Assembly (NCBI GenBank): GCA_910576795.1
Contig: CAJTIX010000004.1
Span: 647 to 64,646, forward strand
Length of the DNA: 64,000 nt
Direction of reading: 5' to 3'
DNA from: an uncultured Bacilli bacterium
Lineage (GTDB): Bacteria > Bacillota_I > Bacilli_A > RF39 > UBA660
The translations under genes and the position numbers were made by a program. The notes under the pieces are model-generated. The model searched no databases and was not told the origin of the DNA. It saw only the letters and a program-made list of their open reading frames with translations. The first letter of the stretch is position 1. The number at the start of each line of letters is the position of its first letter. Below are positions 4,613 through 47,458 of the stretch, one piece after another.

Positions 4613-4760
4613 CTCCTTCTTGCGTAACACAAGAGACTATTCGCAAGTGAATAGGGTGTTTACTTTAATATTTTCGCTCTGCAGCTAGAGTTACACAATA
4701 ACCCAAATGGTAATAAACACGTTATCCGCTTCAAATAGAGCTGCTCAAGTTCAATACGCA
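4613..4760 (-). promoter_or_regulatory. rpsD 5' leader/promoter region, a possible S4 autoregulatory leader.
   Basis: The GC-richer segment ~4620-4760 is unusual in AT-rich DNA and lies directly upstream of rpsD. In Bacillus, S4 autoregulates through its leader mRNA. Confidence 0.3.
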
Positions 4761-4855
4761 GTTACAATTATATTATGTTTTTCCTTGTAAGTCAATACCA
4801 AACGCTCTATAAAAAGTTCAAAATTGGTTAAATTTACAAAAAAAGTGTAAAAAAA

Positions 4856-26436: not shown

Positions 26437-29289
26437 ATGGAGATGATTGCCTTGAAACCAGTTCTACTTTGTATATTAGATGGTGTTGGTATGCGAAAAG
26501 AAACTTACGGAAATGCCTTTGCACAAGCGAAAACACCTCATTTTGATCATTTATGGAAAAAGTATCCACATAGTTTTTTAGAGGCAAGTGGTACTTTTGT
26601 GGGCCTTCCAGAAGGGCAAATGGGCAATAGTGAAGTAGGACACTTAAATATTGGCGCAGGTAGAGTGGTTTACCAACCATTGCAATTGATCACTCAATCT
26701 ATTAAAGATAAAACGTTTTTTGAAAATGAAAAGCTGTTAGAAATCATTCGTCATGTAAAAGAAAATCATTCTCGGTTGCAAGTATTTGGCTTACTCAGTG
26801 ATGGTGGAATTCACTCTCATATAGACCATTTGATGGCAATCATTGATCTGTGTCAAAAAGAAAATATGCATGATGTTTATTTTCATATATTTACAGATGG
26901 TAGAGATACTCTAACCAATGTCGCACTTACTTATTTGGATCAGCTAAATGAAAAAATCAAAGAAACTGGAATTGGTAAAATCGCAACGATTACTGGTAGA
27001 TATTATGCGATGGATCGTGACAATCGTTATGAGCGTATTCAAAAAGCATATGATGCTTGTGTAAAAGGAATTGGCGAAAAATTTGAAACTTATCAAGAGG
27101 CGATTCAACATAATTATGAAAAAGGAATTACAGATGAATTTATCGAACCTGCTATACTAGATGGCAATGGTTGTGTCAAAAAAGGAGATGGTTTGCTTGT
27201 ATTCAATTACAGACCAGACCGTTTACGTGAACTTTTTTCGGCATTCACGAATCCTAAATTCAAAGGATTTAAAAGAAAAAAACTTGCGAATATAAAATTG
27301 GTTACCATGATGCCTGTCAGTGATGAAGTCATATCTGAACCGGCTTTTACGAATGAAAAATTAGATAATACGCTAGGAGAATATGTAAGTAAACAGGGAT
27401 TCAAACAATTACGCATTGCCGAAACAGAAAAATATGCACACGTAACTTATTTTTTTGATGGTGGTGAAGAAAAAGAACTTGGAAGTTGTGACCGTATTTT
27501 AATTCCATCTCCTAAAGTCGCAACATATGATTTATCTCCTAGTATGAGCGCAAATGAAATCACAGATACATTACTTGCGAAATTAGATGAAGAACGTTAT
27601 GACTTAATTGTTCTTAATTTTGCAAATGGAGATATGTTAGGACATACTGGAAATATGGAAGCCACCATCCAAAGTTTGGAAATTGTAGATACTTGTTTGG
27701 GGAAATTGTACCAAAAAATAAAAGAAAAAAATGGTGTACTTGTCGTAACAGCAGATCATGGAAATTGTGAAATAATGCTAGATGAAAATCACAACAAAGT
27801 GACTGCTCATACTACCAGTTTGGTTCCTTTTATTGTAACCAAATCGGATATTCGTTTACAGGATGGGAAACTTTCTGATATCGCACCAACAGTACTGTCT
27901 TTATTGGGACTTAGCATTCCAGCAGAAATGACAGGGAACAGTTTATTACAGGAACCTAAGAAGAAATTGGGCTTTCGTTTCTGGTTTATTTTGTTGTCAT
28001 GTGTATTTTTAATCGGTCTTGTTTTGAACTATGGATATCGTTTTTATCATTTTTACCATTTAGACCACCAAGCAGGGAATGCACAAACAAGTACATTACA
28101 TGATACTATTTTACATAATTCTCCTTTGGTTACCAGTGGAGATGGGCTTTATTTTGATCAAGATAAATATGTATTTAAAGGTATGGTCGAAACAAATTAT
28201 GTATATTATTCTAATCGTTATTTTCGTATCGTACGTGTGAATACAGATGGCTCAATTGTTTTGATTTCAGATGATATTGTAACTTCCATGGTATGGAATT
28301 ATAAAGATAGTGACTATAGCAATTCCTATATCCGTAGTTGGTTAAATAAGGGTGAAGAAGAACATACAGGCATTTTCTATCATAGTCTAGAAAATCCAGA
28401 TGCTTATATTATGGAGAGTTCTTATTGTGTCGATGCGGTAGATGGGGAAAATCTCACTTGTGAGAATACAGTGACCGATCAAGTGGGACTACTTAGCATT
28501 ACCGAATATAAAGATGCCCTTGCCCATCATAGTTATTTAAATATCGGTAAATACTGGTGGACAAGTAATCCTTCAATAGACGGACAAGTATGGTATGTAT
28601 TCAGTAAAGGTGGAATTCATTCTAAATCCAATATGAATGATGCCTATTATGCATATGGAGTACGTCCCGTCATTACCCTGAAACCAGAAGTTCATTTTGT
28701 AAGCGGAAATGGTAGTAAAGAGGATCCATATCGAATTACTGTTCCAAGCCAGCAACTCAGTATTGGAAGTTATGTAACATGGAACGATAGTATATGGAAG
28801 GTACTTGATATTACGGATCAAGACATTCGATTGATGAGAAATGAAGTACTCACGATTGATTCCAAAACAGTATCTCGCATTTTTTCCAACCGTTCGAATC
28901 GCTATGACCCAAATGATGTAGGTTCTTTAGCGTATTATCTCAACCATAATTATCTGCAGTCACTATCCAATTCTTCTTTACTCGTAGATGCTTTATGGTA
29001 TAATGGAACTTATGGAGATTCTTACAATTATCAAAATGTATATGGAAGTGAAGTACAAGCAAAAGTAGGACTTGTAGCTATTGGAAATCTTTATGGAGAT
29101 ACGGATCAATCTTTTGTTACGATGACAGGAATGCATGATGATTTACTTTACTTTGTTTCAGAACAAGGAATGTTATCTACTGCCGATATTGAAACAGAAT
29201 TTTCTGTAAAACCAGTTGTTGCGATTTCGAAATCAGTACAAATTTTGAGTGGTAATGGTAGTAAAGAGGATCCATTTGTGATAGGTTAG
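26437..29289 (+). CDS. gpmI: 2,3-bisphosphoglycerate-independent phosphoglycerate mutase (aa 1-505) fused in frame to a TM helix plus a ~440-aa extracellular domain with two SGNGSKEDP[YF] repeats.
   Basis: The GpmI motifs are ILDGVG ... NSEVGHLN ... TADHGN. There is no stop after ...MTGNSLLQE. The ORF continues PKKKLGFRFWFILLSCVFLIGLV (TM) and then a domain paralogous to the C-terminus of the 20658 protein. Confidence 0.8.
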   Translation: MEMIALKPVLLCILDGVGMRKETYGNAFAQAKTPHFDHLWKKYPHSFLEASGTFVGLPEGQMGNSEVGHLNIGAGRVVYQPLQLITQSIKDKTFFENEKLLEIIRHVKENHSRLQVFGLLSDGGIHSHIDHLMAIIDLCQKENMHDVYFHIFTDGRDTLTNVALTYLDQLNEKIKETGIGKIATITGRYYAMDRDNRYERIQKAYDACVKGIGEKFETYQEAIQHNYEKGITDEFIEPAILDGNGCVKKGDGLLVFNYRPDRLRELFSAFTNPKFKGFKRKKLANIKLVTMMPVSDEVISEPAFTNEKLDNTLGEYVSKQGFKQLRIAETEKYAHVTYFFDGGEEKELGSCDRILIPSPKVATYDLSPSMSANEITDTLLAKLDEERYDLIVLNFANGDMLGHTGNMEATIQSLEIVDTCLGKLYQKIKEKNGVLVVTADHGNCEIMLDENHNKVTAHTTSLVPFIVTKSDIRLQDGKLSDIAPTVLSLLGLSIPAEMTGNSLLQEPKKKLGFRFWFILLSCVFLIGLVLNYGYRFYHFYHLDHQAGNAQTSTLHDTILHNSPLVTSGDGLYFDQDKYVFKGMVETNYVYYSNRYFRIVRVNTDGSIVLISDDIVTSMVWNYKDSDYSNSYIRSWLNKGEEEHTGIFYHSLENPDAYIMESSYCVDAVDGENLTCENTVTDQVGLLSITEYKDALAHHSYLNIGKYWWTSNPSIDGQVWYVFSKGGIHSKSNMNDAYYAYGVRPVITLKPEVHFVSGNGSKEDPYRITVPSQQLSIGSYVTWNDSIWKVLDITDQDIRLMRNEVLTIDSKTVSRIFSNRSNRYDPNDVGSLAYYLNHNYLQSLSNSSLLVDALWYNGTYGDSYNYQNVYGSEVQAKVGLVAIGNLYGDTDQSFVTMTGMHDDLLYFVSEQGMLSTADIETEFSVKPVVAISKSVQILSGNGSKEDPFVIG

Positions 29290-31454: not shown

Positions 31455-31599
31455 AAGAAAAAACGATTCATAGAATAATCTTTGAGTCGTTTTTAAATTG
31501 TTTCAATACGATTGTATTCTAAAAGAATATTCCCCAAAATCTAAAAAAATGTTTTTTTGGGGAATAAAATACGATATAATATAAATACAAGGAGAACTT

Positions 31600-31929
31600 G
31601 TGAAAATAAAATTAGATGATGTAATTGATGTATTGGAATTTATTAATGATGGTATAGATTCAAGTGCTTATTATAATGATAAAACAAATGAATTTATTTA
31701 TATTGATGAATATTCAGATATGAATGGTGATGAAAAAGACAATGTTTATGATACTTGCATAGGTCTTCCAACAAAATATTACATTAATGAATATGAAATG
31801 ATGGAAGAATTTATAGAAGCGATAGAAGATACTAGATTATATAATCAATTACAAATAGCAGTTAGTGGTAAAGGTGCTTTTAGAAGATTTAAAGATACTT
31901 GTATAAATTTTGATATCGCACATGATTGA
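31600..31929 (+). CDS. Small acidic hypothetical protein (109 aa).
   Basis: It is an ORF with an AAGGAGAA RBS and is the first gene of the accessory block. Confidence 0.4.
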   Translation: MKIKLDDVIDVLEFINDGIDSSAYYNDKTNEFIYIDEYSDMNGDEKDNVYDTCIGLPTKYYINEYEMMEEFIEAIEDTRLYNQLQIAVSGKGAFRRFKDTCINFDIAHD

Positions 31930-32015
31930 TATAAGTTTAGAGATGATAAATATAAAGAAATCGCCATAGATTGGTGTAATAAAAATAATATTGAATTTGT
32001 AAAGGAGGTTAAAAA

Positions 32016-32615
32016 ATGAATGAAGTATTAATTTTTAGAATTGGAATAGAAGGGTTAGAAAATAAAATTTGGAGAGAAATTGAAATTCCTAGTAGAAGAA
32101 CTGTTGCAGATTTTGCATATACAATTCTTGCATCATTTAATTCTCTTGCATATCATCTATATGATATAACTTACAAAAATAAGGTATACGATTGTTGGAT
32201 TTGTATTGATGATGATCATAGAGATATTGAATTGGTGAATGCTAATATTACGAAATTAAGCGATTTAAAATTAAAGAAAAAAGATACTATGGAAATGGAA
32301 TATGACACAGGATCAACAACTACATTTCATATTACTTATATAGGTTCAAGAAAATTAAAAAATGATAGAGAACAAGTGTTATATCCACTTGTAACAGCTG
32401 GTGAAGGATTAGGAATGCTTGATGATATGTGTGATTTTGATTTAAAGGACATTGTTGAAGATACGGATCAATTAGGTTATTCCAATCATTATTTTACTCC
32501 CGGATATGAAACAACAAAAAAATATGACTATAGAAAGTATAATATCAAAAAAGATAACAAAGAATTAAAAGGAAAAATATTAGCCATCAAAAATGGGTAT
32601 GAAGTAGGTGATTAA
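32016..32615 (+). CDS. Plasmid pRiA4b ORF-3-like (PF07929-like) domain protein.
   Basis: KIWREIEIPSRRTVADFAYTILASFNSLAYHLYDI fits the IWR ... IP ... L ... FGW ... HL pattern. An AAGGAGG RBS is present. Confidence 0.5.
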   Translation: MNEVLIFRIGIEGLENKIWREIEIPSRRTVADFAYTILASFNSLAYHLYDITYKNKVYDCWICIDDDHRDIELVNANITKLSDLKLKKKDTMEMEYDTGSTTTFHITYIGSRKLKNDREQVLYPLVTAGEGLGMLDDMCDFDLKDIVEDTDQLGYSNHYFTPGYETTKKYDYRKYNIKKDNKELKGKILAIKNGYEVGD

Positions 32616-32946
32616 TTTGGATGAACTAACTAAATTACTATTGAAAGATAAAACACCAATTTGCATTCAGAGGATTTAATTGTTAAAGAGTTGTTTGCTA
32701 AAGAAAATTAATCTATTGCCTTTTTATTTTTGTTTTGGTATATAATATTTATGCAGGGAAAAAGTATTTACACTTTTGCATGGGCACTGTCTGAATTGAT
32801 AGGGCCCTATTTTTTCTTTTATGGAGTATTGTTTAATAGAGATTTTATATCTTCTGCTTTTTCAATCAATATGTTTTTTATAAATTTTTCGCAAATAGTC
32901 AAAATTTTTCAAGTTTCGTGATATACTGAATACAAGAGGTGTAATT

Positions 32947-33261
32947 ATGGAAGAATTAACTGAAAAAATAAGAAAATTCGCAGAAGAAAGAGATTGGTTA
33001 CAATTTAATACTCCAGAAAATCTTGCTAAATCAATTGCTATTGAAGCTGCGGAATTACTAGAATGCTTTCAATGGAATAATAATTATAATAAGGATGAAT
33101 TAAAATATGAAATAGCAGATGTAATGAACTACTGCATATTATTATGCTCACAAATAGGTGTCGATCCAAAAAAAATAATTCTTGAAAAAATGAATATATC
33201 TGCTAAAAAATATCCAATAGAAAAGGCAAAAGGGGTTAGCACAAAGTATACTAAATTGTAG
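32947..33261 (+). CDS. MazG-like nucleotide pyrophosphohydrolase, a small all-alpha NTP-PPase.
   Basis: FAEERDW ... ENLAKSIAIEAAELLECFQW ... EIADVMNY is the MazG/NTP-PPase helix pair with the EExxE motif. Confidence 0.7.
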   Translation: MEELTEKIRKFAEERDWLQFNTPENLAKSIAIEAAELLECFQWNNNYNKDELKYEIADVMNYCILLCSQIGVDPKKIILEKMNISAKKYPIEKAKGVSTKYTKL

Positions 33262-33280
33262 TTTTAAGGAGATGTTTATC

Positions 33281-35056
33281 ATGGAATTAGCCAATCCTAT
33301 TATTAAAAAAATAGAAGATAGTGAGTTGGGATTAAATAAATTTGAATTAGAAATAAATGCTTGTAAAAATAAAAATGAGAAAAAAGTAATAAAAGATTAT
33401 CCAACTGTATATATTCATACATGGAAAAGAAAAGAGGTCTATGAGGTATATATAGGGGAATCCAATGATATATTTGAGAGAACAAGAGAGCATTATAGAA
33501 ATAGAAAAGTTCAAGGAAAATGGCAGAAAAATTTAAGATTAAAGGATACTGATTTATATGTGATAGGACATGAACATTTTAATAAATCATTAACACTTGA
33601 TGTTGAAAACAGATTAATGCATTATTTGACTGGTGTTGAAAATGTTAGAAAGGTCCATAATGCGAGGGGAAATCCCCAAAATCAATACTACACATCCAAT
33701 GAATTTGATCAAATATTTCATAAAATATGGTTAAAATTAGGAGGATATAATAACGAACTATTTCCTTTAGAGAGTAAAATAATTGATTCTGCAATCTTCA
33801 AGGCTTCCCCATTACATAAATTGACAAAGAAACAACAAGCTGTAAAAGAATTAATAGTAAGTAAAGTGATAGAATCATCATTGACTAATAAGACTGGCCA
33901 ATTAATATTTGTAGAAGGAGAGGCTGGTACTGGTAAAACGGTATTAAATAGCAGTACTTTTTATGAATTATGTTGTATGAGTGAAACATCTGTTGAAAAT
34001 GATATTAACCCTATTACTAAACCATTAAAATGTTGCCTAATTGTTAACCATAAAGAACAGAGAAGTGTATACCGACAAATATTCAAGAAATTATGTATTG
34101 AAAATGGAGATTTAGTTTATTCACCAACTACTTTTATTCATAAATATGATGTTAATCATCCTATAGATGTAGTATTTGTAGATGAAGCACATTTATTGTT
34201 AACGCAAGGCAAACAATCATACACGGGAAAAAACCAATTACAAGATATTTTAAATAGAGCAAAGGTTACAATTATAATGTTTGATACGAATCAAATTTTA
34301 ACTGCTGAACAATATTGGGAATATAAACTTTTAGAAAAGTATAGGAAAATGGCACAAGATAACAATAATCACATTGTTCTTACAGAACAATTAAGAATTC
34401 ATGCGAACGATAAAGTGATTAAATGGATTGATGACTTTACGAAAAAAGGGATTGTTAATAAATTACCGAAAAAACTAGGAAATTATGATATTGAAATATT
34501 TGATACGCCAAAACTTTTGGAGAATAAAATAAAAGAAAAAGCAAAAAATAAAAATTCAAAATTATCTAGGCTAGTTGCAACATATGATTGGAAGTATAGT
34601 TCTTCACATACAAATAATGGAAAACCTTGGGAGGTAACTATAGATAAGTGGCATAGGTCATGGAATTATGAAGTTGCAAAGAACTTTAGTAGAAACGAAA
34701 ACAAAGGAATTAAAGATAAATCTTGGGCTGAACAAGATCATACAATTAATGAGGTTGGTTCAATATTTACAATTCAAGGTTTTGACTTAAATTATGTTGG
34801 AGTAATTATAGGACCATCGGTAAAATATCGAAATAACAAAATCATCTATTGCCCTGAATTTAGTTGTCATGAAAAAGCTGTCCAAAATAGGAAATTATCC
34901 GATGGTACCTATAAAAATTTTGGAGAACTATTAATAAGAAATCAATTGAGAATATTAATGACAAGGGGTGTTAATGGTTTATATATTTATGCATGTGATG
35001 AAGGATTAAGAGAACATTTAAAAAAATGTGCTGAAAAAAGGTATGTATGTGAATAA
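33281..35056 (+). CDS. GIY-YIG-like N-terminal domain fused to a DUF2075/Schlafen-like P-loop ATPase (helicase-like). It is a candidate defense protein.
   Basis: VYIHTWKRKEVYEVYIGESNDIFERTREH is GIY-YIG-like. The Walker A is VEGEAGTGKTV and the Walker B is VVFVDEAHLL. The C-terminal MTRGVNGLYIY is typical of DUF2075. It lies 19 nt downstream of the MazG-like stop with its own AAGGAG RBS. Confidence 0.65.
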   Translation: MELANPIIKKIEDSELGLNKFELEINACKNKNEKKVIKDYPTVYIHTWKRKEVYEVYIGESNDIFERTREHYRNRKVQGKWQKNLRLKDTDLYVIGHEHFNKSLTLDVENRLMHYLTGVENVRKVHNARGNPQNQYYTSNEFDQIFHKIWLKLGGYNNELFPLESKIIDSAIFKASPLHKLTKKQQAVKELIVSKVIESSLTNKTGQLIFVEGEAGTGKTVLNSSTFYELCCMSETSVENDINPITKPLKCCLIVNHKEQRSVYRQIFKKLCIENGDLVYSPTTFIHKYDVNHPIDVVFVDEAHLLLTQGKQSYTGKNQLQDILNRAKVTIIMFDTNQILTAEQYWEYKLLEKYRKMAQDNNNHIVLTEQLRIHANDKVIKWIDDFTKKGIVNKLPKKLGNYDIEIFDTPKLLENKIKEKAKNKNSKLSRLVATYDWKYSSSHTNNGKPWEVTIDKWHRSWNYEVAKNFSRNENKGIKDKSWAEQDHTINEVGSIFTIQGFDLNYVGVIIGPSVKYRNNKIIYCPEFSCHEKAVQNRKLSDGTYKNFGELLIRNQLRILMTRGVNGLYIYACDEGLREHLKKCAEKRYVCE

Positions 35057-35074
35057 ATTTATTATAAACAAGCA

Positions 35075-35104
35075 AAAGATACATTTTAATGAGTATCTTT
35101 TTTG
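35075..35104 (+). terminator. Intrinsic terminator after the DUF2075 gene.
   Basis: aaagatacattttaatgagtatcttttttgg. Confidence 0.65.
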
Positions 35105-35224
35105 GTTTCTGTAGAATTTGGCATAATATCATGGACAAAATTGGTATTTAGTTTTCTTGTTAAGATTTAAAATATATTAAAGAATAAGTGTTGTTGCATT
35201 TATTTGTAATTGAATTGGTAAAAT

Positions 35225-35253
35225 TTGACAACAATAAGATTTGACTTTATAAT
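35225..35253 (+). promoter_or_regulatory. Consensus sigma-A promoter of the jet operon: TTGACA-17-TATAAT.
   Basis: TTGACAacaataagatttgacttTATAAT lies 25 nt upstream of the jetA RBS. Confidence 0.7.
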
Positions 35254-35277
35254 AGCGCATAAAAAAGGGGTGAAATA

Positions 35278-36636
35278 ATGTTTAATTTGTTTGATTTGAT
35301 ACCTATGAATTTTTTTAATATATTTGTAGGAGCCAATAGAGTTATTTATGCAGATATCTTATTTATTCTTTTTGCAAAAATGAAATCTATGAATAGTTAT
35401 ACAATGTATAAAGAAGAATTTATTGACATTATTGAAAACTATTTAATTAGTAACGCGATTGAAATAGAGGAATTAGATATAGAAAGTAAGAATCCTAGAA
35501 CTACGGCTACTGCGATTTTTAGAAAATTAAAAGAACTAGGCTGGATCGACGTAGAATATGATGCTGTGCAACAACAATTAGTTAATTTTGAGGACTATGC
35601 AATTTCTGTTTTAAATAATTTATTGGAACTTAGCAAAGATAGTACATTTGAATTAAGTAGTAAGGTATATAGTATGTATATGAATTTAAAAAATATAGAT
35701 CTTGAACGTGGATATTTGACAGTGTATACAGTTTATAAACAAGCACGCGATTTGATTGATAAATTGAAAAGTTTAAATTCGAATATTCGTAAATATATTA
35801 AGAAAATGATTCAATTAGATCAAAAAGATGAAGTACAATATTTGAATTGTGTTTTAAATCAACTATTTAGCGATTATAAAGAGAAGATTATCGATAAAGC
35901 TTATTACTATATGAAAACAAATGATAATCCCAGAAAGTATAAACAGGCGATTGAAAGCATATGTGAAAGGTTAAAATATGATGAGGCAAGCAGTAGGGAA
36001 CTGATAAATCAAATTATGACAAAAGATGAACTAGATGCAGATGAAGCCCTTAATAAATTAGAAGAAATGCTTAAATTTATAGAAGGCTCTTTTGATGAAG
36101 CAATTGATTTGATGCAGATAATTGATGAAAAAAATGCCAAATATATCAATGTTGCAATTGATAAAATCAAGATTATTTTAAATCATAATACTGATATTGA
36201 AGGACACTTATTACATATTTTGAAAAATTTTGATTTACTACAACCTGAAGATATAAATTCTCACTTTTTTGATAGAAGAAATATTATGCACAGTTCATTA
36301 TACACAATAAAAATGAGAAAAAAAGAGATTGAACCACAAGAATTAAAACAAAAAAATATCAATTATATGAAGGATCATTCTTTATCAATCTTGAAAGAAA
36401 ATGTAAAATACTGCAAGCGAAATATCCAAAAATATGTAATGCAAAAATTGGAAAAAAAAGATTCATTGACAATAGAAGATTTTAACATTTCATTAAAAGA
36501 AGAATTTATTAAATTATTGCTTATTATGATTTATGAAAGTGATAAAAGTTCTAATTATAGAGTGATATGGGATAAAGAAGAAATGAAAGCATATGGCTAT
36601 ACGACAAGACAATTTATAATAGAAAGGAAAAAATAA
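35278..36636 (+). CDS. jetA: Wadjet JetA / MksF-like (kleisin-like, DUF3375-like) subunit.
   Basis: It is 452 aa, the first gene of a 4-gene operon of 452/212/1058/395 aa with overlapping stops and starts. Its position and size match JetA. Confidence 0.7.
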   Translation: MFNLFDLIPMNFFNIFVGANRVIYADILFILFAKMKSMNSYTMYKEEFIDIIENYLISNAIEIEELDIESKNPRTTATAIFRKLKELGWIDVEYDAVQQQLVNFEDYAISVLNNLLELSKDSTFELSSKVYSMYMNLKNIDLERGYLTVYTVYKQARDLIDKLKSLNSNIRKYIKKMIQLDQKDEVQYLNCVLNQLFSDYKEKIIDKAYYYMKTNDNPRKYKQAIESICERLKYDEASSRELINQIMTKDELDADEALNKLEEMLKFIEGSFDEAIDLMQIIDEKNAKYINVAIDKIKIILNHNTDIEGHLLHILKNFDLLQPEDINSHFFDRRNIMHSSLYTIKMRKKEIEPQELKQKNINYMKDHSLSILKENVKYCKRNIQKYVMQKLEKKDSLTIEDFNISLKEEFIKLLLIMIYESDKSSNYRVIWDKEEMKAYGYTTRQFIIERKK

Positions 36637-36637
36637 T

Positions 36638-37276
36638 ATGGAAGAAATTTTAGAAGCATTTATGCATGATTATAAATTATTAAGCGAGAAAGAAAAAGAA
36701 AAATTTGCCGAAATTGTAAACAAATTACTAAATATAAATTATATGACAAGTCATAAAGCGGAGGACACATTAAACTATCAATTTATTGAAAATCATATAG
36801 ATTGCTTTAAAAATTACTTTAATATTGTGCATATAGAATTGTGTTTATATAAACAAACTAAAACAATTGTTTTGAAGACAGAATATATGAACAAATTGAA
36901 TTTGAATAAACTGCAAAGTATTATTTTGTTGATTATAAGGCTTTTGTATTCACAGAAATTGAAAGAAATTAGTATATTAAATGATGTAATTATAAACGTT
37001 GGCGAAATTCGAAATAAATATGAAAATATAGGATTTGTAGGAGAAGAAAAATTAAATGTGGTAAAATTAAAAGACTGTCTTCAAATTTTTAAAAAATACA
37101 ATTTAGTGAATTATAGAGGACAAAATATTTACGAGGATGACTTTGCAATTACTGTATATCCAACCATACAGTATGCAGTTTCTATTGATAATATTGAAGT
37201 GTTAGTTCAAAAAATTAATTGTTATAAAGAAAAGAGTGACCAAAATGAAGAAATTAACGAAGATCAAATTGATTAA
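36638..37276 (+). CDS. jetB: Wadjet JetB / MksE-like subunit.
   Basis: It is 212 aa and sits between the jetA and jetC homologues. Confidence 0.7.
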   Translation: MEEILEAFMHDYKLLSEKEKEKFAEIVNKLLNINYMTSHKAEDTLNYQFIENHIDCFKNYFNIVHIELCLYKQTKTIVLKTEYMNKLNLNKLQSIILLIIRLLYSQKLKEISILNDVIINVGEIRNKYENIGFVGEEKLNVVKLKDCLQIFKKYNLVNYRGQNIYEDDFAITVYPTIQYAVSIDNIEVLVQKINCYKEKSDQNEEINEDQID

Positions 37277-40200
37277 TTGGTATACCTTTGAAAATGAAAC
37301 AATTGACTTATATGGGAATTGTCTAATTTCGGGAGCGAATGGAAGTGGCAAATCTACTTTATTAGATGCCATACAATTTATATTAACCGCTGGTGGAACA
37401 CAGTTTAATAAAGCAGCAGATGAGAAAAGTAAGAGAAATCTAGAAAGCTATGTAAGAGGAAAAATAGGAACTGCCAATAAAGAGTATTTAAGAAATGGTG
37501 ATGTAACATCTTATGTTGCTTTACAATTCCATGATTATGAAACGAAAACAAAAGATATAATTGGAGCTTGTATTGAAGTTTCATCTGGATTTAAACCTAA
37601 AAGGATATTTTTTAGAATTTCAAGTATGGACATAAACGATGAAATCTTTATCGAAAAGAATAAACCGAAAACAATGGTAGAATTTAGAAGGGTACAATCT
37701 ATTGAAATATTTGAAACAAAAGGTGAAATCAAACAAATGATACGAGCTATTTTGGGTGTTTGCAGTGATAAATACTTCGAATTAATTCCAAGAGCCTTGG
37801 CATTTAAACCAATTGATGAAAATCTAGATAATTTTGTCAATGATGTATTACTTTCTGAAAAGGAAATTGATTTACATAGTCTTCAACAAAATATTCAAAA
37901 TCTAACGGAACTACAGGAAATTATTAAGAATGAAGAGAATAAGATAAAAGAATTGGAAAAATTAGAAAAAGATTATGAAAGTTATAAGAATTGTTTATCG
38001 CAAAAGAAATTTTACGATTGGGCTAAACTACAATTTCAGATATTAAGTAGACAAGAGATAATTCAAAAATTAGAAGCTATGATTCATAATTTAGAAGCTC
38101 AACATACTGATAAAACAAAAAATATTGAATTAGAAGAAATATCCCTTGCTTCTTTAGAACAAGATATTGATAATTATAAAAAATCCAATGAAAGCAATTC
38201 TGATTTTAACATACAGGATCAACTCCAGAAAGATATTTTGAAATTAAAGGAGCAACATGAGAATTTCAAAAAGGAATATAAAATGTATCAAAATTATTTT
38301 GAGAAAGAAATAAAAATTGCTCAAAATATAAAGTGTCATATTTTAGAAAAGGTAGAACTAAATCAAATTGAAGCATTAAATAAATGTCTTTATGAATATA
38401 AAAAATATGTAGAAAGTAAGAAAAGGGAATTTCAAACGAATTACCATCAATATGAGGATAGAGAAAAGGAAGTTTCTGATAAAATTAATATTTGTGATCA
38501 AAAATTAGAAAGGTTACATAAAAAGCAAATGCCATATGAACCCCATATTATTTGTTTACAAGATGAAATTAAAGTATACTTGAGTGAAAAATATAATATT
38601 AATGTTGAAGTGAGACCATTATGTGAATATATTGACATTACAGATGAAAAGTGGCGAGATGCAATAGAGGGGTACTTGAATACACAACGTTTTGATTTAA
38701 TTGTGGAACCACAATATTTTGATGATGCTTTAAATGTATATGAATCTATCAAAAAAGAAAAGAAAATTTATGGTGTTGGTTTAGTAAATGTTAAAAAATT
38801 AGATTTAGAGGATATAATAGAAAATACATTGGCTACAAAAATTAAATCGAATTATAATTATGCCTATTTATATGCAATTAAAATATTAAATAAGGTCGTA
38901 TGTTGTGAAGATATTAATATGCTAAAAAGTTATAATAATGCCATTACACCCACCTGTATGGCTTATAGAAATCATGTCGCAAGACAGATCAATCCAAATG
39001 TTTATCAGGATTATTACATTGGTACGCAAGCGTATGAAAAGCAATTATCAAAATATACAAAAGTCCAAAAAGAATATAATACATTATTACAGAATATACA
39101 ATCTACAATGAAAAATTACAATAATCAATTATTACAAATACAGGAAAGTAGAATAGATGAGTTATTACGAGATATCACCGTATTGAAACGATATAATAGA
39201 GTGAACGAAGAAATGAATCAAAAACAAGATGACTTAAATAAGATGCAAACAGATGGTCTAGTGTATGATATGATGCAAAAATTAAATGAATTGTATGCAA
39301 AATATGAAACTAAAAAGAAAGAAATAAATCAAATAAAAGATGAAAAAAGAAAACTAGAACTCCAGATTGATGAAAATAATGAAAAGTTAGACATGTTGTA
39401 TAAAGAATTAACTACTATCAAAGACAGTGTTACAGAAAAAGAAGTAGACTATGAAGAAAAAATCAAAAAAATATCATATTCACAAATTGATAATTTGTAT
39501 TCTAAAAATGAAATCATATTAATGCAACTTCAAACTTCTATTGAAAGTTTACAAAGTAAATATAATGAGCAATATGAATATGATGAAATTCCTTCTATTG
39601 ACACTGTCCAAAAATATATTACTACGTTATATCAAATTAGAGAAAAAGACATTGTCAAATATAAAGCAGATAGTGTAAATTTTCAAACGCAGTGTCGAAA
39701 CAGTTTTGAAGAAGATTTTATTAGTCATTTAAGAAATAATATTATTAGTGCACAAGGAGAACTCAAAGAATTAAATAGAGCACTAAAAAATAAAAGATTT
39801 GGTCAAGATGGTGAAAAATATGAATTTGTGTTTGAACAGAGTGATGATCCTGAATTAGCAAAATATTATGAGATTATTATGAGTGGAAAAGATTATACAG
39901 TGCATAGTTTATTTGATGAAACTTTAACTCAGGATCAAAAAGAACAAATGGAAGAATTATTTAGAAAACTTACGACTCCATCTGAATATGTATCTACTTG
40001 TCATTATACGGATTATAGAAAATATATGTCTTATGACATAAGGGTAACAAAAAATAATGGGGATTCTTATAAGCTTTCTCATGTTGTAAGAGAAAAAAGT
40101 GGGGGAGAAACACAAACGCCGTTTTACTTCATTATTGCATCCTCTTTTGAGCAACTTTTAAAGTCGGGAATACGTAAAGGGTCTATTGGATGTGTCGTAT

Positions 40201-40412
40201 TGTTGGATGAGGCTTTCAATCGAATGGATGAATCTAGAATTGAAGCAATGATGCACTTTTATAATGAGTTAAATATTCAGCTTTTAATAGCTGTTCCTCC
40301 ACAACAGCTTCCAAGCATTGCCCCATATGTCAATACCAATTTGTTGATTGAAACAAAAGATTATGATTCGTTTGTGATCCCTTATAGAATAGAGGATTTA
40401 ATGGATGAATAA
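37245..40412 (+). CDS. jetC: Wadjet JetC / MksB-like SMC-family ATPase.
   Basis: The N-terminus LINWYTFENETIDL ... ISGANGSGKSTLLDAIQFIL is the Walker A. A long coiled-coil middle follows. The C-terminal signature/Walker B/D-loop is VVLLDEAFNRMDESR. Confidence 0.85.
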   Translation: MKKLTKIKLINWYTFENETIDLYGNCLISGANGSGKSTLLDAIQFILTAGGTQFNKAADEKSKRNLESYVRGKIGTANKEYLRNGDVTSYVALQFHDYETKTKDIIGACIEVSSGFKPKRIFFRISSMDINDEIFIEKNKPKTMVEFRRVQSIEIFETKGEIKQMIRAILGVCSDKYFELIPRALAFKPIDENLDNFVNDVLLSEKEIDLHSLQQNIQNLTELQEIIKNEENKIKELEKLEKDYESYKNCLSQKKFYDWAKLQFQILSRQEIIQKLEAMIHNLEAQHTDKTKNIELEEISLASLEQDIDNYKKSNESNSDFNIQDQLQKDILKLKEQHENFKKEYKMYQNYFEKEIKIAQNIKCHILEKVELNQIEALNKCLYEYKKYVESKKREFQTNYHQYEDREKEVSDKINICDQKLERLHKKQMPYEPHIICLQDEIKVYLSEKYNINVEVRPLCEYIDITDEKWRDAIEGYLNTQRFDLIVEPQYFDDALNVYESIKKEKKIYGVGLVNVKKLDLEDIIENTLATKIKSNYNYAYLYAIKILNKVVCCEDINMLKSYNNAITPTCMAYRNHVARQINPNVYQDYYIGTQAYEKQLSKYTKVQKEYNTLLQNIQSTMKNYNNQLLQIQESRIDELLRDITVLKRYNRVNEEMNQKQDDLNKMQTDGLVYDMMQKLNELYAKYETKKKEINQIKDEKRKLELQIDENNEKLDMLYKELTTIKDSVTEKEVDYEEKIKKISYSQIDNLYSKNEIILMQLQTSIESLQSKYNEQYEYDEIPSIDTVQKYITTLYQIREKDIVKYKADSVNFQTQCRNSFEEDFISHLRNNIISAQGELKELNRALKNKRFGQDGEKYEFVFEQSDDPELAKYYEIIMSGKDYTVHSLFDETLTQDQKEQMEELFRKLTTPSEYVSTCHYTDYRKYMSYDIRVTKNNGDSYKLSHVVREKSGGETQTPFYFIIASSFEQLLKSGIRKGSIGCVVLLDEAFNRMDESRIEAMMHFYNELNIQLLIAVPPQQLPSIAPYVNTNLLIETKDYDSFVIPYRIEDLMDE

Positions 40413-41592
40413 ATATACCGATTTAATTTTGAAGAAATTATTAAAAAAATATGAGAATAGTAAAATTTCTAAAGGAGAAACAAAACGAACTGTAAATATA
40501 TTTATCAAATTTGATTTAAAAGAAATGAAAGATTATGTAAGTGAGGATAGTTACAAATATGAATCTGAAATCCTAGAAGCAGTTGATTATTTAAAAAATA
40601 AACATTATATTTGTGTAGAAGAGAAAAATCATCGTATTCAAAGAGTTATTTTAAATATAGAGTGGGTAGATTCCGTTTACGCAGAATTGCATTTAGAAAA
40701 TCCTATAAAGAAAAATATATCCTACATGAGACAATTAAACCAGCATATAGATAAAGGCCAATTAGTGCATAATTTTTGTTGTAAAATGATGGATAAATTA
40801 GAACATTTTGAATCTGTTAAATCTTATTTTAATTCGGAAAATGAATTAAGAGATATATTGATTACCTTGGAGTATTTAGAAAATCAAAAAAATGAAATTA
40901 GTGAAAGAAATTTTAGTGCAAAATACTTGAATGACTCTAAAAAATTAGAACATATGGAGGGAAAAATATTAAAGATAGTAAAAGAATGTAGTATGGAAGA
41001 TTTTACAGATGATTCATATTTGGAACATTATAATGTGTATAAAAATCCTACGCAGGTTTATATACGTGGATATGGTATTTTTAAAATTTTTAATCAAATT
41101 GTTGATTTAAGTAAAATGGGAAACGAATTGGTTTTATCTAGTAATCAATTAAAGGATTTTTCTGTAATAGAGTTGCCCATATCTAAAGTAGTTACAGTTG
41201 AAAATCTTACAACGTATTATAATATACCTTACAAAGATAGTTGTGTTGTATATTTAGGTGGATTTCATAATACAATTCGTAAAGAATTATTGTGTAAGAT
41301 TTATCAATTTAATCAAAATTTGCAATTTTATCACTGTGGTGATATTGATGCAGGTGGATTTTACATTCTAAATCATTTAACACAAGATACCAAGATTCCA
41401 TTTATACCTTATTTTATGGATATAGAAACATTAAAAACTTATAAAATGTATGCAAAAAAATTGTCAGATGAAGATAGAAAAAGATTAGCAGATTTAATGG
41501 AAATAAAAGATTTATATATATATTATGATATTTTTGAGTATATGTTATTACATAATATGAAATTAGAACAAGAAAATATTATATATAAATAA
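40405..41592 (+). CDS. jetD: Wadjet JetD / MksG-like Toprim (topo VI-A-like, DUF2220) nuclease subunit.
   Basis: VVTVENLTTYYN carries the Toprim Glu and YHCGDIDAGGFYIL carries the DxD. It overlaps the jetC stop. Confidence 0.8.
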   Translation: MNKYTDLILKKLLKKYENSKISKGETKRTVNIFIKFDLKEMKDYVSEDSYKYESEILEAVDYLKNKHYICVEEKNHRIQRVILNIEWVDSVYAELHLENPIKKNISYMRQLNQHIDKGQLVHNFCCKMMDKLEHFESVKSYFNSENELRDILITLEYLENQKNEISERNFSAKYLNDSKKLEHMEGKILKIVKECSMEDFTDDSYLEHYNVYKNPTQVYIRGYGIFKIFNQIVDLSKMGNELVLSSNQLKDFSVIELPISKVVTVENLTTYYNIPYKDSCVVYLGGFHNTIRKELLCKIYQFNQNLQFYHCGDIDAGGFYILNHLTQDTKIPFIPYFMDIETLKTYKMYAKKLSDEDRKRLADLMEIKDLYIYYDIFEYMLLHNMKLEQENIIYK

Positions 41593-41905
41593 CACGTTGT
41601 GCTAGTAAAAAGGAGAATAGAAAAACCATTCAAAATATGGTACTCTTAATTTGAAAAAATAATAATGAGACCTGAACAATATTTATTTGAAGCTTTAGAA
41701 GGAAATGAAACAGTAATAAAAGAGTATGTGAAAAACCAAGGTAAACAAGATGGGGAATATAAGCAATTTAGGCGACATCGCTATAAAAGATACCCCGCAC
41801 TCGTAGAGTGACAATCATCCTTTGGATGATTAAAGCTTGCTCCGGGGAGTTTCATTGTACCCAAATTGGGCAACTTACATATAATGACTTAGGAGGAGAT
41901 TATAT

Positions 41906-43120
41906 ATGAATAATTTTCAAGTTGTTGTAGATGCTGGCCATGGAGGGAGCGACCCAGGTGCTGTAGCAAACGGTGTTCAAGAAAAAGATTTGAATTTACA
42001 AATAGCTCGTTATATGTATGAACAATTTCAAAACAAAGGAATTCCAGTTACACTAATTCGTAGTACAGATGAAACCATTAGCCCAACAGAACGTGTCAAT
42101 AGAATACTTGCTGCTTATGGAGATAATCCCAATGTCATTGTAATATCAAATCATATCAATGCATCTGGTTCAGCAACTTCAGGAGCAGAGGGTGCTGAAG
42201 TTATTTATGCCTTAAGAAATGATGATACACTTGCTAAAAACATATTACAAGCATTAGGAAATGCAGGTCAAGTTGTAAGAACTTATTATCAAAGAAGGCT
42301 ACCAAGTGATACCTCAAAAGATTATTATTTCATTCATAGAAATACAGGAAGTACACAACCTGTTATTGTAGAATATGGATATATCGATAATCCAACTGAT
42401 TTAGCGCGCATTCAAAATAATTATAAAAAATATGTAGATGCAGTAGTCAATGCCGTAATCGCAACCGAACAAGGTGCAACTATCCCATCTACTCCAGGAA
42501 CAGGGACTTCTTATGTGGTAAAATCAGGGGATAGTTTATGGAGTATCGCAAACCGTTATAATACCACTGTAAATGCCATTAAAAACATGAACAATCTAAC
42601 GAGTAATGCATTATCTGTAGGACAGGTATTACAAATTCCAACAAGTACATCTACAGGAACTGGAAATACGTACACAGTCAAATCAGGAGACAGCCTATGG
42701 AGTATCGCAAACCGCTATAATACCACTGTAGATGCGATTAAAAACGCGAATAATTTAACTGGCAATACCCTATCTATTGGGCAAGTACTCAGAATTCCAA
42801 CAAGTACTTCTACGGGAACAGGAAACACATACACAGTCAAATCAGGAGACAGCCTATGGAGTATCGCAAATCGCTATAATACCACCGTAAATGCAATCAA
42901 AAATGCCAATAATTTAACCAGTGATTCCTTATCGATAGGACAGGTATTAACCATTCCAACCAGTACCTCTACAGGGAAAACAACTTATACAGTTAAATCA
43001 GGAGATAGCTTATGGAGTATTGCGCAACGTTACAATACGACTGTAGATGCGATCAAAAATGCAAGTGGAATTATTAGTAATAACTTAAGTATTGGGCAGG
43101 TATTAACCATTCCAAATTAG
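41906..43120 (+). CDS. N-acetylmuramoyl-L-alanine amidase (Amidase_3) with four C-terminal LysM repeats.
   Basis: VVDAGHGGSDPGA ... NHINAS are Amidase_3 motifs. There are 4x YTVKSGDSLWSIANRYNTTV ... IGQVL LysM repeats. Confidence 0.85.
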   Translation: MNNFQVVVDAGHGGSDPGAVANGVQEKDLNLQIARYMYEQFQNKGIPVTLIRSTDETISPTERVNRILAAYGDNPNVIVISNHINASGSATSGAEGAEVIYALRNDDTLAKNILQALGNAGQVVRTYYQRRLPSDTSKDYYFIHRNTGSTQPVIVEYGYIDNPTDLARIQNNYKKYVDAVVNAVIATEQGATIPSTPGTGTSYVVKSGDSLWSIANRYNTTVNAIKNMNNLTSNALSVGQVLQIPTSTSTGTGNTYTVKSGDSLWSIANRYNTTVDAIKNANNLTGNTLSIGQVLRIPTSTSTGTGNTYTVKSGDSLWSIANRYNTTVNAIKNANNLTSDSLSIGQVLTIPTSTSTGKTTYTVKSGDSLWSIAQRYNTTVDAIKNASGIISNNLSIGQVLTIPN

Positions 43121-46267: not shown

Positions 46268-47458
46268 ATGAAAGTATTATCAGTAAATGCGGGTAGTTCT
46301 ACACTAAAATTTCGTTTGTATGAAATGCCTGAAGAAAAAGTATTAGCGAAGGGTGCATTTGAACGAATTGGGTTAGAAAATGGTATTTATAATATCAAAA
46401 TGAACGATGAAAAAATAGAAAAGTCTCTCAATATGAAAGATCATGGAGATGCTGTACAGGCTTTATTGAAAGAATTAGTAGAACAACATATGATTGAAAA
46501 TCTGGATGAAATTGGAGCTGTTGGTCATCGTGTAGTACATGGAGGCTCTAAATATGCCAAAAGTGTAATCATTGATGATGAAGTAATGAAGGAAATTGAA
46601 TCTATTTCTGATTTGGCGCCATTACACAATCCTGCCAATTTAATTGGGATTCGAGCATTTAAAGAAGCAATTCCTAATGCAATTCAAGTAGCTTGTTTTG
46701 ATACAGCTTTTCATCAAACAATGGACGAAAGAAATTACTTGTATCCAGTACCATATGAATGGTATACCAAATATGGAGTTCGTAAATATGGATTCCATGG
46801 TATGAGCCATAAATTTATTACGGAAAAGATGAAATCTATTTTAAACTCAGAAACGCCAAATTTAATTATATGCCACATTGGAAATGGAGCAAGTATCTCT
46901 GCCGTAAGAGAAGGAATTTGTATCGATACCTCTATGGGATTTACTCCAAATGCAGGAATTATGATGGGAACGCGTAGTGGAGATATTGATTATACAATGA
47001 TTCAGTACTTGAAGAACAAAATGGATTCTAGTTATGAAAGTATTGATAGTTTACTCAACAAAGCAAGTGGTTTAGAAGGAATTGCTGGTAGAAGTGATTT
47101 AAGAGATTTGGATGATGCTTTCCTTGCAAAAGAACCAGCCGTTATTCTTGCTTTTGCTATGTATACTGACCGAATTGTGGATTATATCGCTAGATACTAT
47201 GTCAAATTAGATGGTCATGTAGATGCGATTTGCTTTACCGCAGGTGTAGGTGAAAACGATTCTATTATTCGTGCAGAAGTTCTTAAGAAATTAACTTGTT
47301 TAGGAATTCTATTAGATGAAGAAAAAAATAATGCAACACTTTGTAGAAAAGGTGTAGAAGGTATTATTACAAGAGATGACTCTAAAATTCCATGTTATGT
47401 ACTTGGTACAGATGAAGAGTTGATGATTGCAAGAGATACTTATGATTTTGTAAATTAA
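46268..47458 (+). CDS. ackA: Acetate kinase.
   Basis: VLSVNAGSSTLKF ... VVHGG ... CFDTAFHQTM ... FHGMSH. Confidence 0.9.
   Translation: MKVLSVNAGSSTLKFRLYEMPEEKVLAKGAFERIGLENGIYNIKMNDEKIEKSLNMKDHGDAVQALLKELVEQHMIENLDEIGAVGHRVVHGGSKYAKSVIIDDEVMKEIESISDLAPLHNPANLIGIRAFKEAIPNAIQVACFDTAFHQTMDERNYLYPVPYEWYTKYGVRKYGFHGMSHKFITEKMKSILNSETPNLIICHIGNGASISAVREGICIDTSMGFTPNAGIMMGTRSGDIDYTMIQYLKNKMDSSYESIDSLLNKASGLEGIAGRSDLRDLDDAFLAKEPAVILAFAMYTDRIVDYIARYYVKLDGHVDAICFTAGVGENDSIIRAEVLKKLTCLGILLDEEKNNATLCRKGVEGIITRDDSKIPCYVLGTDEELMIARDTYDFVN

What the first reader, a model, noticed from the sequence alone, without database searches (positions are those of the whole stretch)
35225..41592. Complete Wadjet/MksBEFG-like (jetABCD) condensin-type anti-plasmid system with its own consensus promoter.
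Four overlapping genes of 452/212/1058/395 aa match JetA (kleisin-like), JetB, JetC and JetD. JetC is an SMC-like ATPase with Walker A GANGSGKST, a long coiled coil and Walker B/D-loop LLDEAFNRMDESR. JetD is a Toprim protein with catalytic E in VENLTTY and DxD in GDIDAGG. A perfect TTGACA-17-TATAAT promoter precedes the operon and a terminator separates it from the upstream genes. The family is already described, but this is the clearest defense system in the window and it anchors a defense island.
Basis: partly seen in the sequence, partly recalled or inferred. Interest (0 to 1): 0.6.

Follow-up and report, generated by a model that had tools for sequence, protein, structure and literature searches.

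The report
Intact type I Wadjet anti-plasmid operon
This is an ordinary but complete four-gene Wadjet (JetABCD) system, a known bacterial machine that recognises and cuts small circular plasmids, sitting in a variable, low-GC slot of an uncultured gut bacterium's chromosome.

Summary
Four co-directional genes at 35278-41592 match full-length type I Wadjet profiles: JetA1 (1.7e-83), JetB1 (7e-50), JetC1 (3e-272) and JetD1 (4e-104). Pfam agrees. The refutation test fails: SMC, RecF and Rad50 models match only the P-loop, far below their cut-offs. JetC has Walker A, signature and Walker B motifs and matches solved JetC chains. A confident JetD model (pLDDT 91) resembles topoisomerase VI-A. Its E266, D313/D315 and E388/E390 are invariant in 40 homologues and fit the motif pattern of experimentally validated residues. 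The perfect TTGACA-17-TATAAT promoter is real, and a -10 box in the same position recurs in distant homologous operons.

Corrections:
- jetA and jetB abut; they do not overlap.
- jetC probably starts at ATG 37245, giving 1055 aa.
- The upstream "terminator" is a weak AT-rich hairpin.
- Wadjet is the only recognised defence system in the window.

The "island" idea holds in another sense. The roughly 10.4 kb, 26% GC segment is absent from 52 related loci. Close relatives carry type I restriction-modification systems or serine-recombinase elements at that site.

This is a new, divergent member (52% identity or less) of a known kind. Function is inferred, not shown.

The parts
35225..35253 (+). 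Sigma-70/SigA-type promoter of the jet operon: -35 TTGACA at 35225-35230, 17-nt spacer, -10 TATAAT at 35248-35253. A short leader follows, with the SD AAGGGGTG about 7 nt before the jetA ATG.
   Evidence: It scores 12/12. It is the only perfect match in the window, against 0.09 expected. A TATAAT box at the same distance from jetA, followed by a similar leader (TATAATAGCGCA...AAAAAGGGG), is present in homologous operons L055-L058, whose proteins are only 40-50% identical.
35278..36636 (+). jetA: kleisin-like subunit, 452 aa.
   Evidence: PADLOC JetA1 1.7e-83, residues 3-451 against profile 4-466 of 467. Pfam PF18982 JetA 3.9e-78, 263 bits against a cut-off of 26.
36638..37276 (+). jetB: KITE/MukE-like subunit, 212 aa. 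It starts 1 nt after the jetA stop and has its own SD (AAAGGAA).
   Evidence: PADLOC JetB1 7.2e-50 over the full length. Pfam DUF4194 61 bits against a cut-off of 32.7; MksE 22.4 bits is below its cut-off of 27.
37245..40412 (+). jetC: SMC-like ABC ATPase, 1055 aa from ATG 37245 (the longest ORF starts at GTG 37236 and gives 1058 aa). Walker A G30-T38 (K36), signature SGGE 952-955, Walker B LLDE 986-989 (E989). It overlaps jetB by 32 nt.
   Evidence: PADLOC JetC1 3.2e-272, 904 bits, residues 4-1055 against profile 1-1090 of 1097; JetC2 scores only 24.8 bits. Pfam AAA_29, AAA_23 and SbcC_Walker_B. Direct phmmer hits to solved JetC 8as8 (7e-9) and 8dk1-8dk3, with SGGE and LDEAF aligned. Gene callers give 1055 aa. 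The SD AAGAG lies 8 nt before ATG 37245.
40405..41592 (+). jetD: Toprim nuclease subunit, 395 aa. E266 (VENLTTY), D313/D315 (GDIDAGG), E388/E390 (KLEQEN). It overlaps jetC by 8 nt, and the SD AGAGGA lies 8 nt upstream.
   Evidence: PADLOC JetD1 4.1e-104, residues 1-393 against profile 1-406 of 409. Pfam JetD_C 85.9 bits against a cut-off of 22. The residues are invariant in 40 homologues. The AF2 model has pLDDT 91, with E266 and the DxD at the ends of beta-strands. The best Foldseek matches are TopoVI-A 2zbk (4e-8) and 1d3y (8e-8).
35074..35110 (+). Weak hairpin followed by a T-rich tail, 18 nt after the stop of the upstream helicase gene. It is a possible but unconvincing intrinsic terminator.
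   Evidence: The fold gives a 9-bp stem (2 G-C pairs) and a 10-nt loop; the 61-nt context folds at -8.9 kcal/mol, z = -1.13. The terminator scan did not detect it.
31455..41855 (.). Low-GC variable segment (about 10.4 kb) that contains the jet operon plus orf109, a PRiA4_ORF3-like gene, a MazG-like gene, the GIY-YIG/Schlafen-helicase gene and orf48. These neighbours are not part of Wadjet.
   Evidence: GC is 26.4% against 31.6% for the rest of the window. DNA homology with relative L041 resumes at window 41855, about 50 nt before the amidase gene. None of the 52 related loci has jet genes here. The left boundary is inferred only from the GC drop after the deacetylase gene.

Best explanation
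This is a complete and apparently intact type I Wadjet (JetABCD, also called MksBEFG or EptABCD) system, transcribed as one operon from its own strong promoter. Its mechanism is inferred from the characterised type I systems. JetC dimers, closed by the JetA kleisin and bound by JetB KITE subunits, form a dimer-of-dimers SMC motor that loads on DNA and extrudes loops using ATP. On a small circular DNA the extrusion runs to completion and the motors stall. That activates the JetD Toprim nuclease, which cuts the plasmid. Linear DNA and the much larger chromosome escape. The expected outcome is restriction of small circular plasmids entering by transformation or conjugation. What is shown here: gene content and order, family membership, intact catalytic motifs, the JetD fold, the promoter, the translational coupling, and the location in a variable chromosomal slot. 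What is inferred: expression, complex assembly, loop extrusion, specificity for circular DNA and the anti-plasmid phenotype.
For: The four proteins match JetA1, JetB1, JetC1 and JetD1 over their full length at E-values of 1e-50 to 1e-272, and Pfam JetA, DUF4194, SbcC_Walker_B/AAA_29 and JetD_C above curated cut-offs. JetC hits the solved E. coli GF4-3 and P. aeruginosa JetC chains, with the signature and Walker B motifs aligned. Its E989 aligns with the Walker B glutamate of E. coli JetC, most likely E1022, whose EQ mutation abolishes activity. JetD E266 and D313/D315 are invariant and sit at Toprim strand ends in a pLDDT-91 model. That model's best PDB matches are TopoVI-A 2zbk and 1d3y. In the literature, JetD E248/D290/D292 are equated with 1d3y E197/D249/D251, and E248A abolishes restriction. 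E388/E390 fit the position and E-x-E pattern of the conserved glutamate pair E349/E351 of MksG. The same operon architecture, gene sizes and overlaps, and a -10 box in the same position, recur in loci encoding the nearest homologues. The neighbours are unrelated housekeeping genes and the segment is lineage-variable, as expected for a horizontally acquired defence cassette. [quoted passage not shown]
Against: There are no functional data for this operon or for any close relative. The nearest JetD in a database of 5.8 billion proteins is 52% identical, and JetA, JetB and JetC are 40-50% identical to their nearest operon-mates. JetA, JetB and JetD do not reach any solved Wadjet chain by sequence, even when JetD is searched as a clade profile. 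The solved JetD chains did not appear among the Foldseek hits. The coiled-coil arms and hinge of JetC were covered only by profile alignment and were not modelled. The JetB N-terminal IFDR motif reported to contact JetD is not evident by eye in MEEILEAF...
Confidence: 0.92

Rival explanations
1. The operon is cargo of an integrated mobile element and serves mainly in competition between mobile elements, by excluding rival plasmids, rather than as host-selected immunity. The biochemistry would be the same; the beneficiary would differ.
For: The nearest homologous operons sit among mobile-element genes. L056 has an IS110 transposase, Fic, a Mob_Pre relaxase, Mrr and a serine recombinase. L058 has ParB, sortase, SSB and a T4SS pilin. 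In close relatives the same chromosomal site holds serine-recombinase elements. The segment has lower GC than its flanks. The promoter travels with the operon.
Against: No integrase, recombinase, relaxase or bounding repeat was found in the window's own segment. This reading is therefore untested for this copy, and it does not change what the system is.
Confidence: 0.2
2. It is a housekeeping MksBEF/MukBEF-like condensin that organises the chromosome, with the fourth gene unrelated to its function.
For: JetABC subunits are structurally closest to MukBEF. JetB gives a weak MksE match of 22.4 bits.
Against: The MksE match is below the Pfam cut-off, whereas DUF4194/JetB1 is well above it. The fourth gene is a full-length JetD with an intact Toprim site and is translationally coupled to jetC. 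The operon is absent from all 52 related loci at this site, which is not expected of an essential chromosome organiser.
Confidence: 0.03
3. The 1058-aa protein is an SbcC/Rad50/RecN-type repair ATPase or a Lamassu LmuB, and the cluster is a repair system or a different SMC-like defence system.
For: Pfam SbcC_Walker_B and AAA_23 domains are present. There are weak N-terminal matches to LmuB (28 bits), RecF, Rad50 and SMC models.
Against: Those matches cover only about 50-80 P-loop residues and score 16-32 bits against cut-offs of 172-1087. JetC1 covers the whole protein at 904 bits. No Mre11/SbcD or LmuA partner is present; the partners are JetA, JetB and JetD.
Confidence: 0.01
4. The operon looks intact but is inactive: silenced, or a recent relic.
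For: No expression or activity data exist. The source is a MAG.
Against: There are no frameshifts or internal stops, and all catalytic residues are intact and invariant. The operon has a consensus promoter and well-placed ribosome-binding sites. An identical copy was assembled independently from a second dataset (L002, ERR3199523).
Confidence: 0.05

Closest known systems
Type I Wadjet JetABCD of E. coli GF4-3 and P. aeruginosa PA14 (structures 8as8, 8bfn, 8q72, 8dk1-8dk3)
   Same: It has the same four subunit families in the same order. JetC matches these chains directly, with the Walker A, signature and Walker B motifs aligned. The JetD Toprim E...DxD triad follows the same motif pattern as E248/D290/D292. 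PADLOC assigns type I.
   Different: It is very divergent. JetA, JetB and JetD are not detectable against these chains by sequence. The host is a low-GC Firmicute-like organism. JetC is about 40 residues shorter than the 1096-aa E. coli JetC chain.
Type I Wadjet of Bacillus cereus Q1 (the founding type I system, tested in B. subtilis) and native JetABCD of Clostridium cellulovorans 743B
   Same: These are Bacillota type I systems with the jetABCD operon. The JetD Toprim glutamate is required for plasmid restriction (B. cereus E226A). Native deletion raises plasmid uptake by about 1e5-fold.
   Different: The nearest named Clostridium JetD in the search (P0077, Clostridium sp. ZS2-4) is only 38% identical.
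MksBEFG of Corynebacterium glutamicum and EptABCD of Mycobacterium smegmatis
   Same: These are homologous four-subunit anti-plasmid systems. MksG is a divalent-cation-dependent nuclease with a TopoVI-A-like Toprim domain, Mg-binding residues E236/D279 and a conserved glutamate pair E349/E351. That pair is mirrored here by E388/E390, alongside E266 and D313/D315.
   Different: MksG Y258, proposed as catalytic in actinobacterial proteins, is reported not to be conserved in JetD, and equivalence was not tested here. The hosts are actinobacteria and the sequences are distant.
MukBEF / MksBEF condensins
   Same: They share the SMC-kleisin-KITE architecture and, presumably, the loop-extruding motor.
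   Different: They have no nuclease subunit and a housekeeping role, and they are not found in variable islands. Here JetD is present and coupled to jetC, and the MksE model scores below its cut-off.
Topoisomerase VI subunit A / Spo11
   Same: This is the best structural match to the JetD model, covering CAP-like and Toprim domains over 238-304 aligned columns. It has the same Mg-binding triad.
   Different: JetD hydrolyses DNA and leaves free ends rather than forming a covalent tyrosyl intermediate, and no equivalent catalytic tyrosine is known in JetD. Sequence identity is only 9-17%.

Membership tests
Wadjet type I (JetABCD) | Four co-directional, contiguous genes in the order jetA-jetB-jetC-jetD | tested here: met
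   The ORFs lie at 35278-41592. The junctions are +1 nt, -32 nt (or -41 nt from the GTG start) and -8 nt. The same layout is found in homologous loci.
Wadjet type I (JetABCD) | JetA kleisin-like protein of the JetA family | tested here: met
   PADLOC JetA1 1.7e-83 over the full length. Pfam PF18982 263 bits against a cut-off of 26.2.
Wadjet type I (JetABCD) | JetB KITE protein (DUF4194, MukE-like) | tested here: met
   PADLOC JetB1 7.2e-50. Pfam DUF4194 61.1 bits against a cut-off of 32.7.
Wadjet type I (JetABCD) | JetC SMC-like ABC ATPase with Walker A, signature and Walker B motifs | tested here: met
   GANGSGKST at 30-38, SGGE at 952-955 and LLDE at 986-989. They align to solved JetC 8as8. 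JetC1 scores 904 bits.
Wadjet type I (JetABCD) | JetC long antiparallel coiled-coil arms and a hinge dimerisation domain | tested here: inconclusive
   The only evidence is indirect. The JetC1 profile is covered at positions 1-1090 of 1097, and residues 7-500 align to 8as8. No structure or coiled-coil prediction was run.
Wadjet type I (JetABCD) | JetD with a Toprim domain carrying the conserved glutamate and DxD motif | tested here: met
   E266, D313 and D315 are invariant in 40 homologues. The Toprim/TopoVI-A fold is supported. Pfam JetD_C and PADLOC JetD1 both match.
Wadjet type I (JetABCD) | Assignment to type I rather than type II or III | tested here: met
   All the best PADLOC models are JetA1, JetB1, JetC1 and JetD1. 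The only type II model hit, JetC2, scores 24.8 bits against 904 bits for JetC1.
Wadjet type I (JetABCD) | Restriction of small circular plasmids; ATP-dependent cleavage of circular but not linear DNA | not testable with these tools
   This needs transformation, conjugation and in vitro cleavage assays. Reference behaviour is described.
MksBEF/MukBEF housekeeping condensin | Three-subunit SMC complex without a nuclease, conserved in the lineage | tested here: not met
   A coupled JetD gene is present. MksE scores 22.4 bits, below its cut-off of 27. The operon is absent from 52 related loci at this site.
SbcC/Rad50/RecN/RecF repair ATPases | Score above the curated equivalog cut-off, with a partner nuclease (SbcD/Mre11) | tested here: not met
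   The best scores are 16-32 bits against cut-offs of 172-1087, over the P-loop only. No SbcD/Mre11 gene is adjacent.
Lamassu (LmuB SMC-like defence) | Full-length LmuB match with an LmuA effector | tested here: not met
   LmuB scores 28.3 bits over residues 7-66 only. No LmuA-like gene is present.

The most novel reading that the evidence does not exclude
The 10.4 kb segment is one allele of a lineage-wide defence and mobile-element hotspot just upstream of the amidase-Dus-LysRS block. Besides a divergent Wadjet clade that travels with its own conserved promoter and leader, it carries an undescribed two-gene defence module: a MazG-like NTP pyrophosphohydrolase plus a GIY-YIG/Schlafen-type DUF2075 helicase. 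That module recurs next to restriction genes on Lactobacillaceae plasmids.
Probability: 0.3. Interest if true: 0.45.

Novelty: new member of a known kind. Interest (0 to 1): 0.2.

Why it matters
The finding adds little for Wadjet biology. It is a textbook type I operon, although it comes from a poorly sampled, uncultured gut Bacilli/Tenericutes-like lineage and is 52% identical or less to any other sequence. Practically, it predicts that this organism and its relatives will resist small circular plasmids, which matters if they are ever cultured and engineered (compare the C. cellulovorans result). It also marks a chromosomal hotspot where relatives swap in restriction-modification systems or recombinase-borne elements. 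The neighbouring pyrophosphohydrolase-helicase pair there is a reasonable candidate for a defence module that has not been described.

Tried and rejected
These searches found nothing or nothing useful:
- A single-protein scan of 185,579 species-representative genomes with JetD found no relative.
- JetD found nothing in the phage collection. On plasmids it found only distant copies at 30% identity or less.
- phmmer of JetA, JetB and JetD against PDB gave nothing meaningful.
- The 40-sequence JetD profile against PDB gave only two marginal hits to designed proteins (E about 1e-3, residues 150-225), judged spurious.
- Rfam found only a tRNA in the window and no RNA element near the operon.
- No direct or inverted repeats bound the segment, and no recombinase lies in it.
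- The terminator scan found none in 34800-42100.

Two leads were considered and rejected:
- The PADLOC 'REase_II' hits elsewhere in the window turned out to be the MutY and Nth repair glycosylases, so they are not part of any island.
- Literature searches for the DUF2075/MazG or DUF2075/GIY-YIG pairing found nothing relevant.
Full report
**Observation.** The region holds four co-directional ORFs of 452, 212, 1058 and 395 aa at 35278-36636, 36638-37276, 37236-40412 and 40405-41592. In JetC, numbered from ATG 37245, GANGSGKST is at 30-38, the ABC signature SGGE at 952-955 and the Walker B LLDEAF at 986-991. In JetD, VENLTTY is at 265-271 and GDIDAGG at 312-318.

The promoter TTGACA-17-TATAAT at 35225-35253 scores 12/12. 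It is the only perfect match on either strand of the window, against 0.09 expected by chance; 9 of 100 shuffles gave at least one match. It lies 24 nt upstream of the jetA ATG and is followed by the SD AAGGGGTG.

Three details need correcting.
- jetA and jetB abut with a 1-nt gap rather than overlapping. B/C overlap by 32 nt (41 nt from the GTG start) and C/D by 8 nt. Each downstream start has a well-spaced SD, which indicates translational coupling.
- jetC most probably starts at ATG 37245, giving 1055 aa. The SD AAGAG lies 8 nt upstream, public gene calls use this start, and the JetC1 profile begins at residue 4 of the longer ORF.
- The upstream "terminator" at 35074-35101 has a 9-bp stem with two G-C pairs and a 10-nt loop, followed by TTTGGTTT. 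The terminator scan did not find it, and it is no more stable than shuffled sequence (z = -1.1). It is possible but weak.

**Identity.** PADLOC profiles match all four proteins end to end: JetA1 1.7e-83, JetB1 7.2e-50, JetC1 3.2e-272 (904 bits, profile positions 1-1090 of 1097) and JetD1 4.1e-104. Pfam gives JetA (PF18982, 263 bits), DUF4194 (61 bits), AAA_29/AAA_23/SbcC_Walker_B and JetD_C (86 bits), all above gathering scores.

NCBIfam models for SMC, RecF, Rad50 and related ATPases match only the P-loop at 16-32 bits, against cut-offs of 172-1087. LmuB matches only residues 7-66. Type II JetC2 scores 24.8 bits against 904 for JetC1, so the system is type I.

JetC also hits the solved E. coli GF4-3 and P. 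aeruginosa JetC chains directly (7e-9 to 8e-7), with the signature and Walker B motifs aligned.

**JetD active site.** JetD does not reach solved chains by sequence, either alone or as a 40-member profile. In that alignment E266, D313, D315, E388 and E390 are invariant. An AlphaFold model built from the alignment is confident (mean pLDDT 91) and places E266 and the DxD at the C-terminal ends of beta-strands, as in Toprim folds. Its best PDB matches are topoisomerase VI-A: 2zbk at 4e-8 and 1d3y at 8e-8.

**Mechanism (inferred by homology).** Type I Wadjet is a dimer-of-dimers SMC motor made of JetC plus the JetA kleisin and JetB KITE subunits. It is thought to extrude DNA loops. Completing extrusion on a small circle activates JetD, which cleaves the DNA. 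Linear DNA escapes restriction. [quoted passage not shown] Nothing in this operon argues against the same mechanism, but none of it was tested here.

**Source and divergence.** The exact JetD is on record from MAG GCA_949959195.1 (contig CATLIT010000004.1). It was also assembled independently from ERR3199523. The flanking genes (Spo0A, iPGM, Dus, LysRS, two acetate kinases) and the related loci place the genome in an uncultured animal-gut Bacilli/"Tenericutes"-like lineage.

The family is large, with 1044 proteins at E of 1e-5 or better. Even so, the next-nearest JetD is only 52% identical, and JetA, JetB and JetC are 40-50% identical to the nearest operon-mates. Those homologous loci keep the same gene sizes and overlaps. 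They also keep a TATAAT box at the same distance from jetA, followed by a similar leader (TATAATAGCGCA...AAAAAGGGG).

**Context: is this a "defence island"?** Within the window, no other ORF matches a recognised defence system. The two "REase_II" hits are the MutY and Nth glycosylases, 20 kb or more away. The jet operon does, however, lie in a roughly 10.4 kb segment of 26% GC, against 32% elsewhere. None of the 52 related loci has this segment at the site. More distant relatives have Spo0A-iPGM or NAGPA next to Dus.

The three closest relatives (Dus 82-84% identical) share the amidase-Dus-LysRS block, but each has different cargo just upstream:
- L041 has a complete type I restriction-modification system (HsdR, HsdM, HsdS) plus a PDC-S50 Schlafen/AlbA_2 protein.
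- L004 has an HsdR and a serine recombinase.
- L003 has a serine recombinase and an FtsK-like protein.

Homology with L041 resumes at window 41855. The site is therefore a variable hotspot for defence genes and mobile elements, with Wadjet as this genome's occupant. No recombinase or bounding repeats were found in this copy.

**Side observation.** Immediately upstream in the same segment, a 104-aa MazG-like pyrophosphohydrolase and a 594-aa protein are separated by 10 nt. The larger protein has a weak N-terminal GIY-YIG match and a strong Schlafen-group-3/DUF2075 helicase domain (1.2e-88). They have no convincing PADLOC match. They are not linked to Wadjet in other loci.

The same pairing occurs on two Lactobacillaceae plasmids, next to type I restriction-modification subunits, an integrase, a DEAD-box helicase and a DUF2357 protein. 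Literature searches found no description of it. It is a candidate two-gene defence module and is arguably more novel than the Wadjet operon.

**Verdict.** This is a new, divergent member of a well-described kind. Interest is low for Wadjet itself and modest for the hotspot and the neighbouring gene pair.

Noticed in passing
window 32947-35056: A MazG-like NTP pyrophosphohydrolase (104 aa) lies 10 nt upstream of a 594-aa GIY-YIG(weak)/Schlafen-group-3 DUF2075 helicase, in the same low-GC segment as Wadjet. There is no convincing PADLOC match. The same gene pair occurs on Lactobacillaceae plasmids NZ_CP028230.1 and NZ_CP117984.1 beside restriction-type genes. It is not linked to Wadjet elsewhere. 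It is a candidate undescribed defence module.
   Followed up: partly
L041 1386-8640; L004 108-8670; L003 3830-8713 (same chromosomal site as window 31.5-41.9 kb): Close relatives share the amidase-Dus-LysRS block but carry different cargo upstream. L041 has type I HsdR/M/S plus PDC-S50 (Schlafen AlbA_2) plus a RidA-GNAT fusion. L004 has HsdR plus a serine recombinase. L003 has a serine recombinase plus an FtsK-like protein. This points to an integration and defence hotspot.
   Followed up: yes
window 35248-35277; L055 about 4754-4813; L056/L057 about 4770-4824; L058 about 4755-4803: The -10 box and leader upstream of jetA (TATAATAGCGCA...AAAAAGGGG) are conserved at the DNA level, although the encoded proteins are only 40-50% identical. 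The promoter seems to move with the operon.
   Followed up: partly
L056 1878-21188; L058 11300-21194: The nearest Wadjet homologues sit among mobile-element genes. L056 has an IS110 transposase, Fic, a Mob_Pre relaxase, an Mrr-like nuclease and a serine recombinase. L058 has ParB, sortase, SSB and a T4SS pilin. This suggests the clade is carried by integrative or conjugative elements.
   Followed up: no
window 13029-14093 and 55410-56045: The PADLOC model PDLC03398 ('REase_II, type II nicking endonuclease') hits these two ORFs at 5.8e-28 and 4.9e-16. Pfam shows they are HhH-GPD repair glycosylases, one MutY-like with a NUDIX_4 domain and one Nth-like. These are false defence calls.
   Followed up: yes
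window 26437-29289: A 950-aa protein fuses a complete cofactor-independent phosphoglycerate mutase (residues 7-493) to a long C-terminal extension containing DUF6273 (residues 605-749). This is an unusual architecture for iPGM. In relatives L008 and L037 only about 500 residues match.
   Followed up: no
window 41593-41905: The 313-nt spacer between jetD and the amidase gene contains a called 48-aa ORF (41665-41811) with no family match, and an 8-bp hairpin (AATCATCC/GGATGATT, read by eye at about 41814-41833) without a T-tract. No clear terminator ends the jet operon, and Rfam finds nothing here.
   Followed up: partly
window 31600-32615: Two small genes lie at the left end of the variable segment: a 109-aa ORF with no credible family, and a 199-aa PRiA4_ORF3-like protein (PF07929, 7e-18), a family first named from a plasmid. 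Their function is unknown.
   Followed up: no
window 363-3071 and 20658-21959: Two large ORFs of 902 aa and 433 aa have no Pfam match at E of 1e-5 or better and no PADLOC match.
   Followed up: no
window, one ORF among those in alignment A2 (not located): One ORF outside 24-46 kb gives weak Cas3/Cas3-HD PADLOC matches (about 1e-7), most likely a generic helicase or HD-domain protein. It is not among the 20 ORFs scanned individually.
   Followed up: partly
window 46268-47458 and 48006-49187: Two acetate-kinase paralogues are separated by a 122-aa ORF of unknown function.
   Followed up: no
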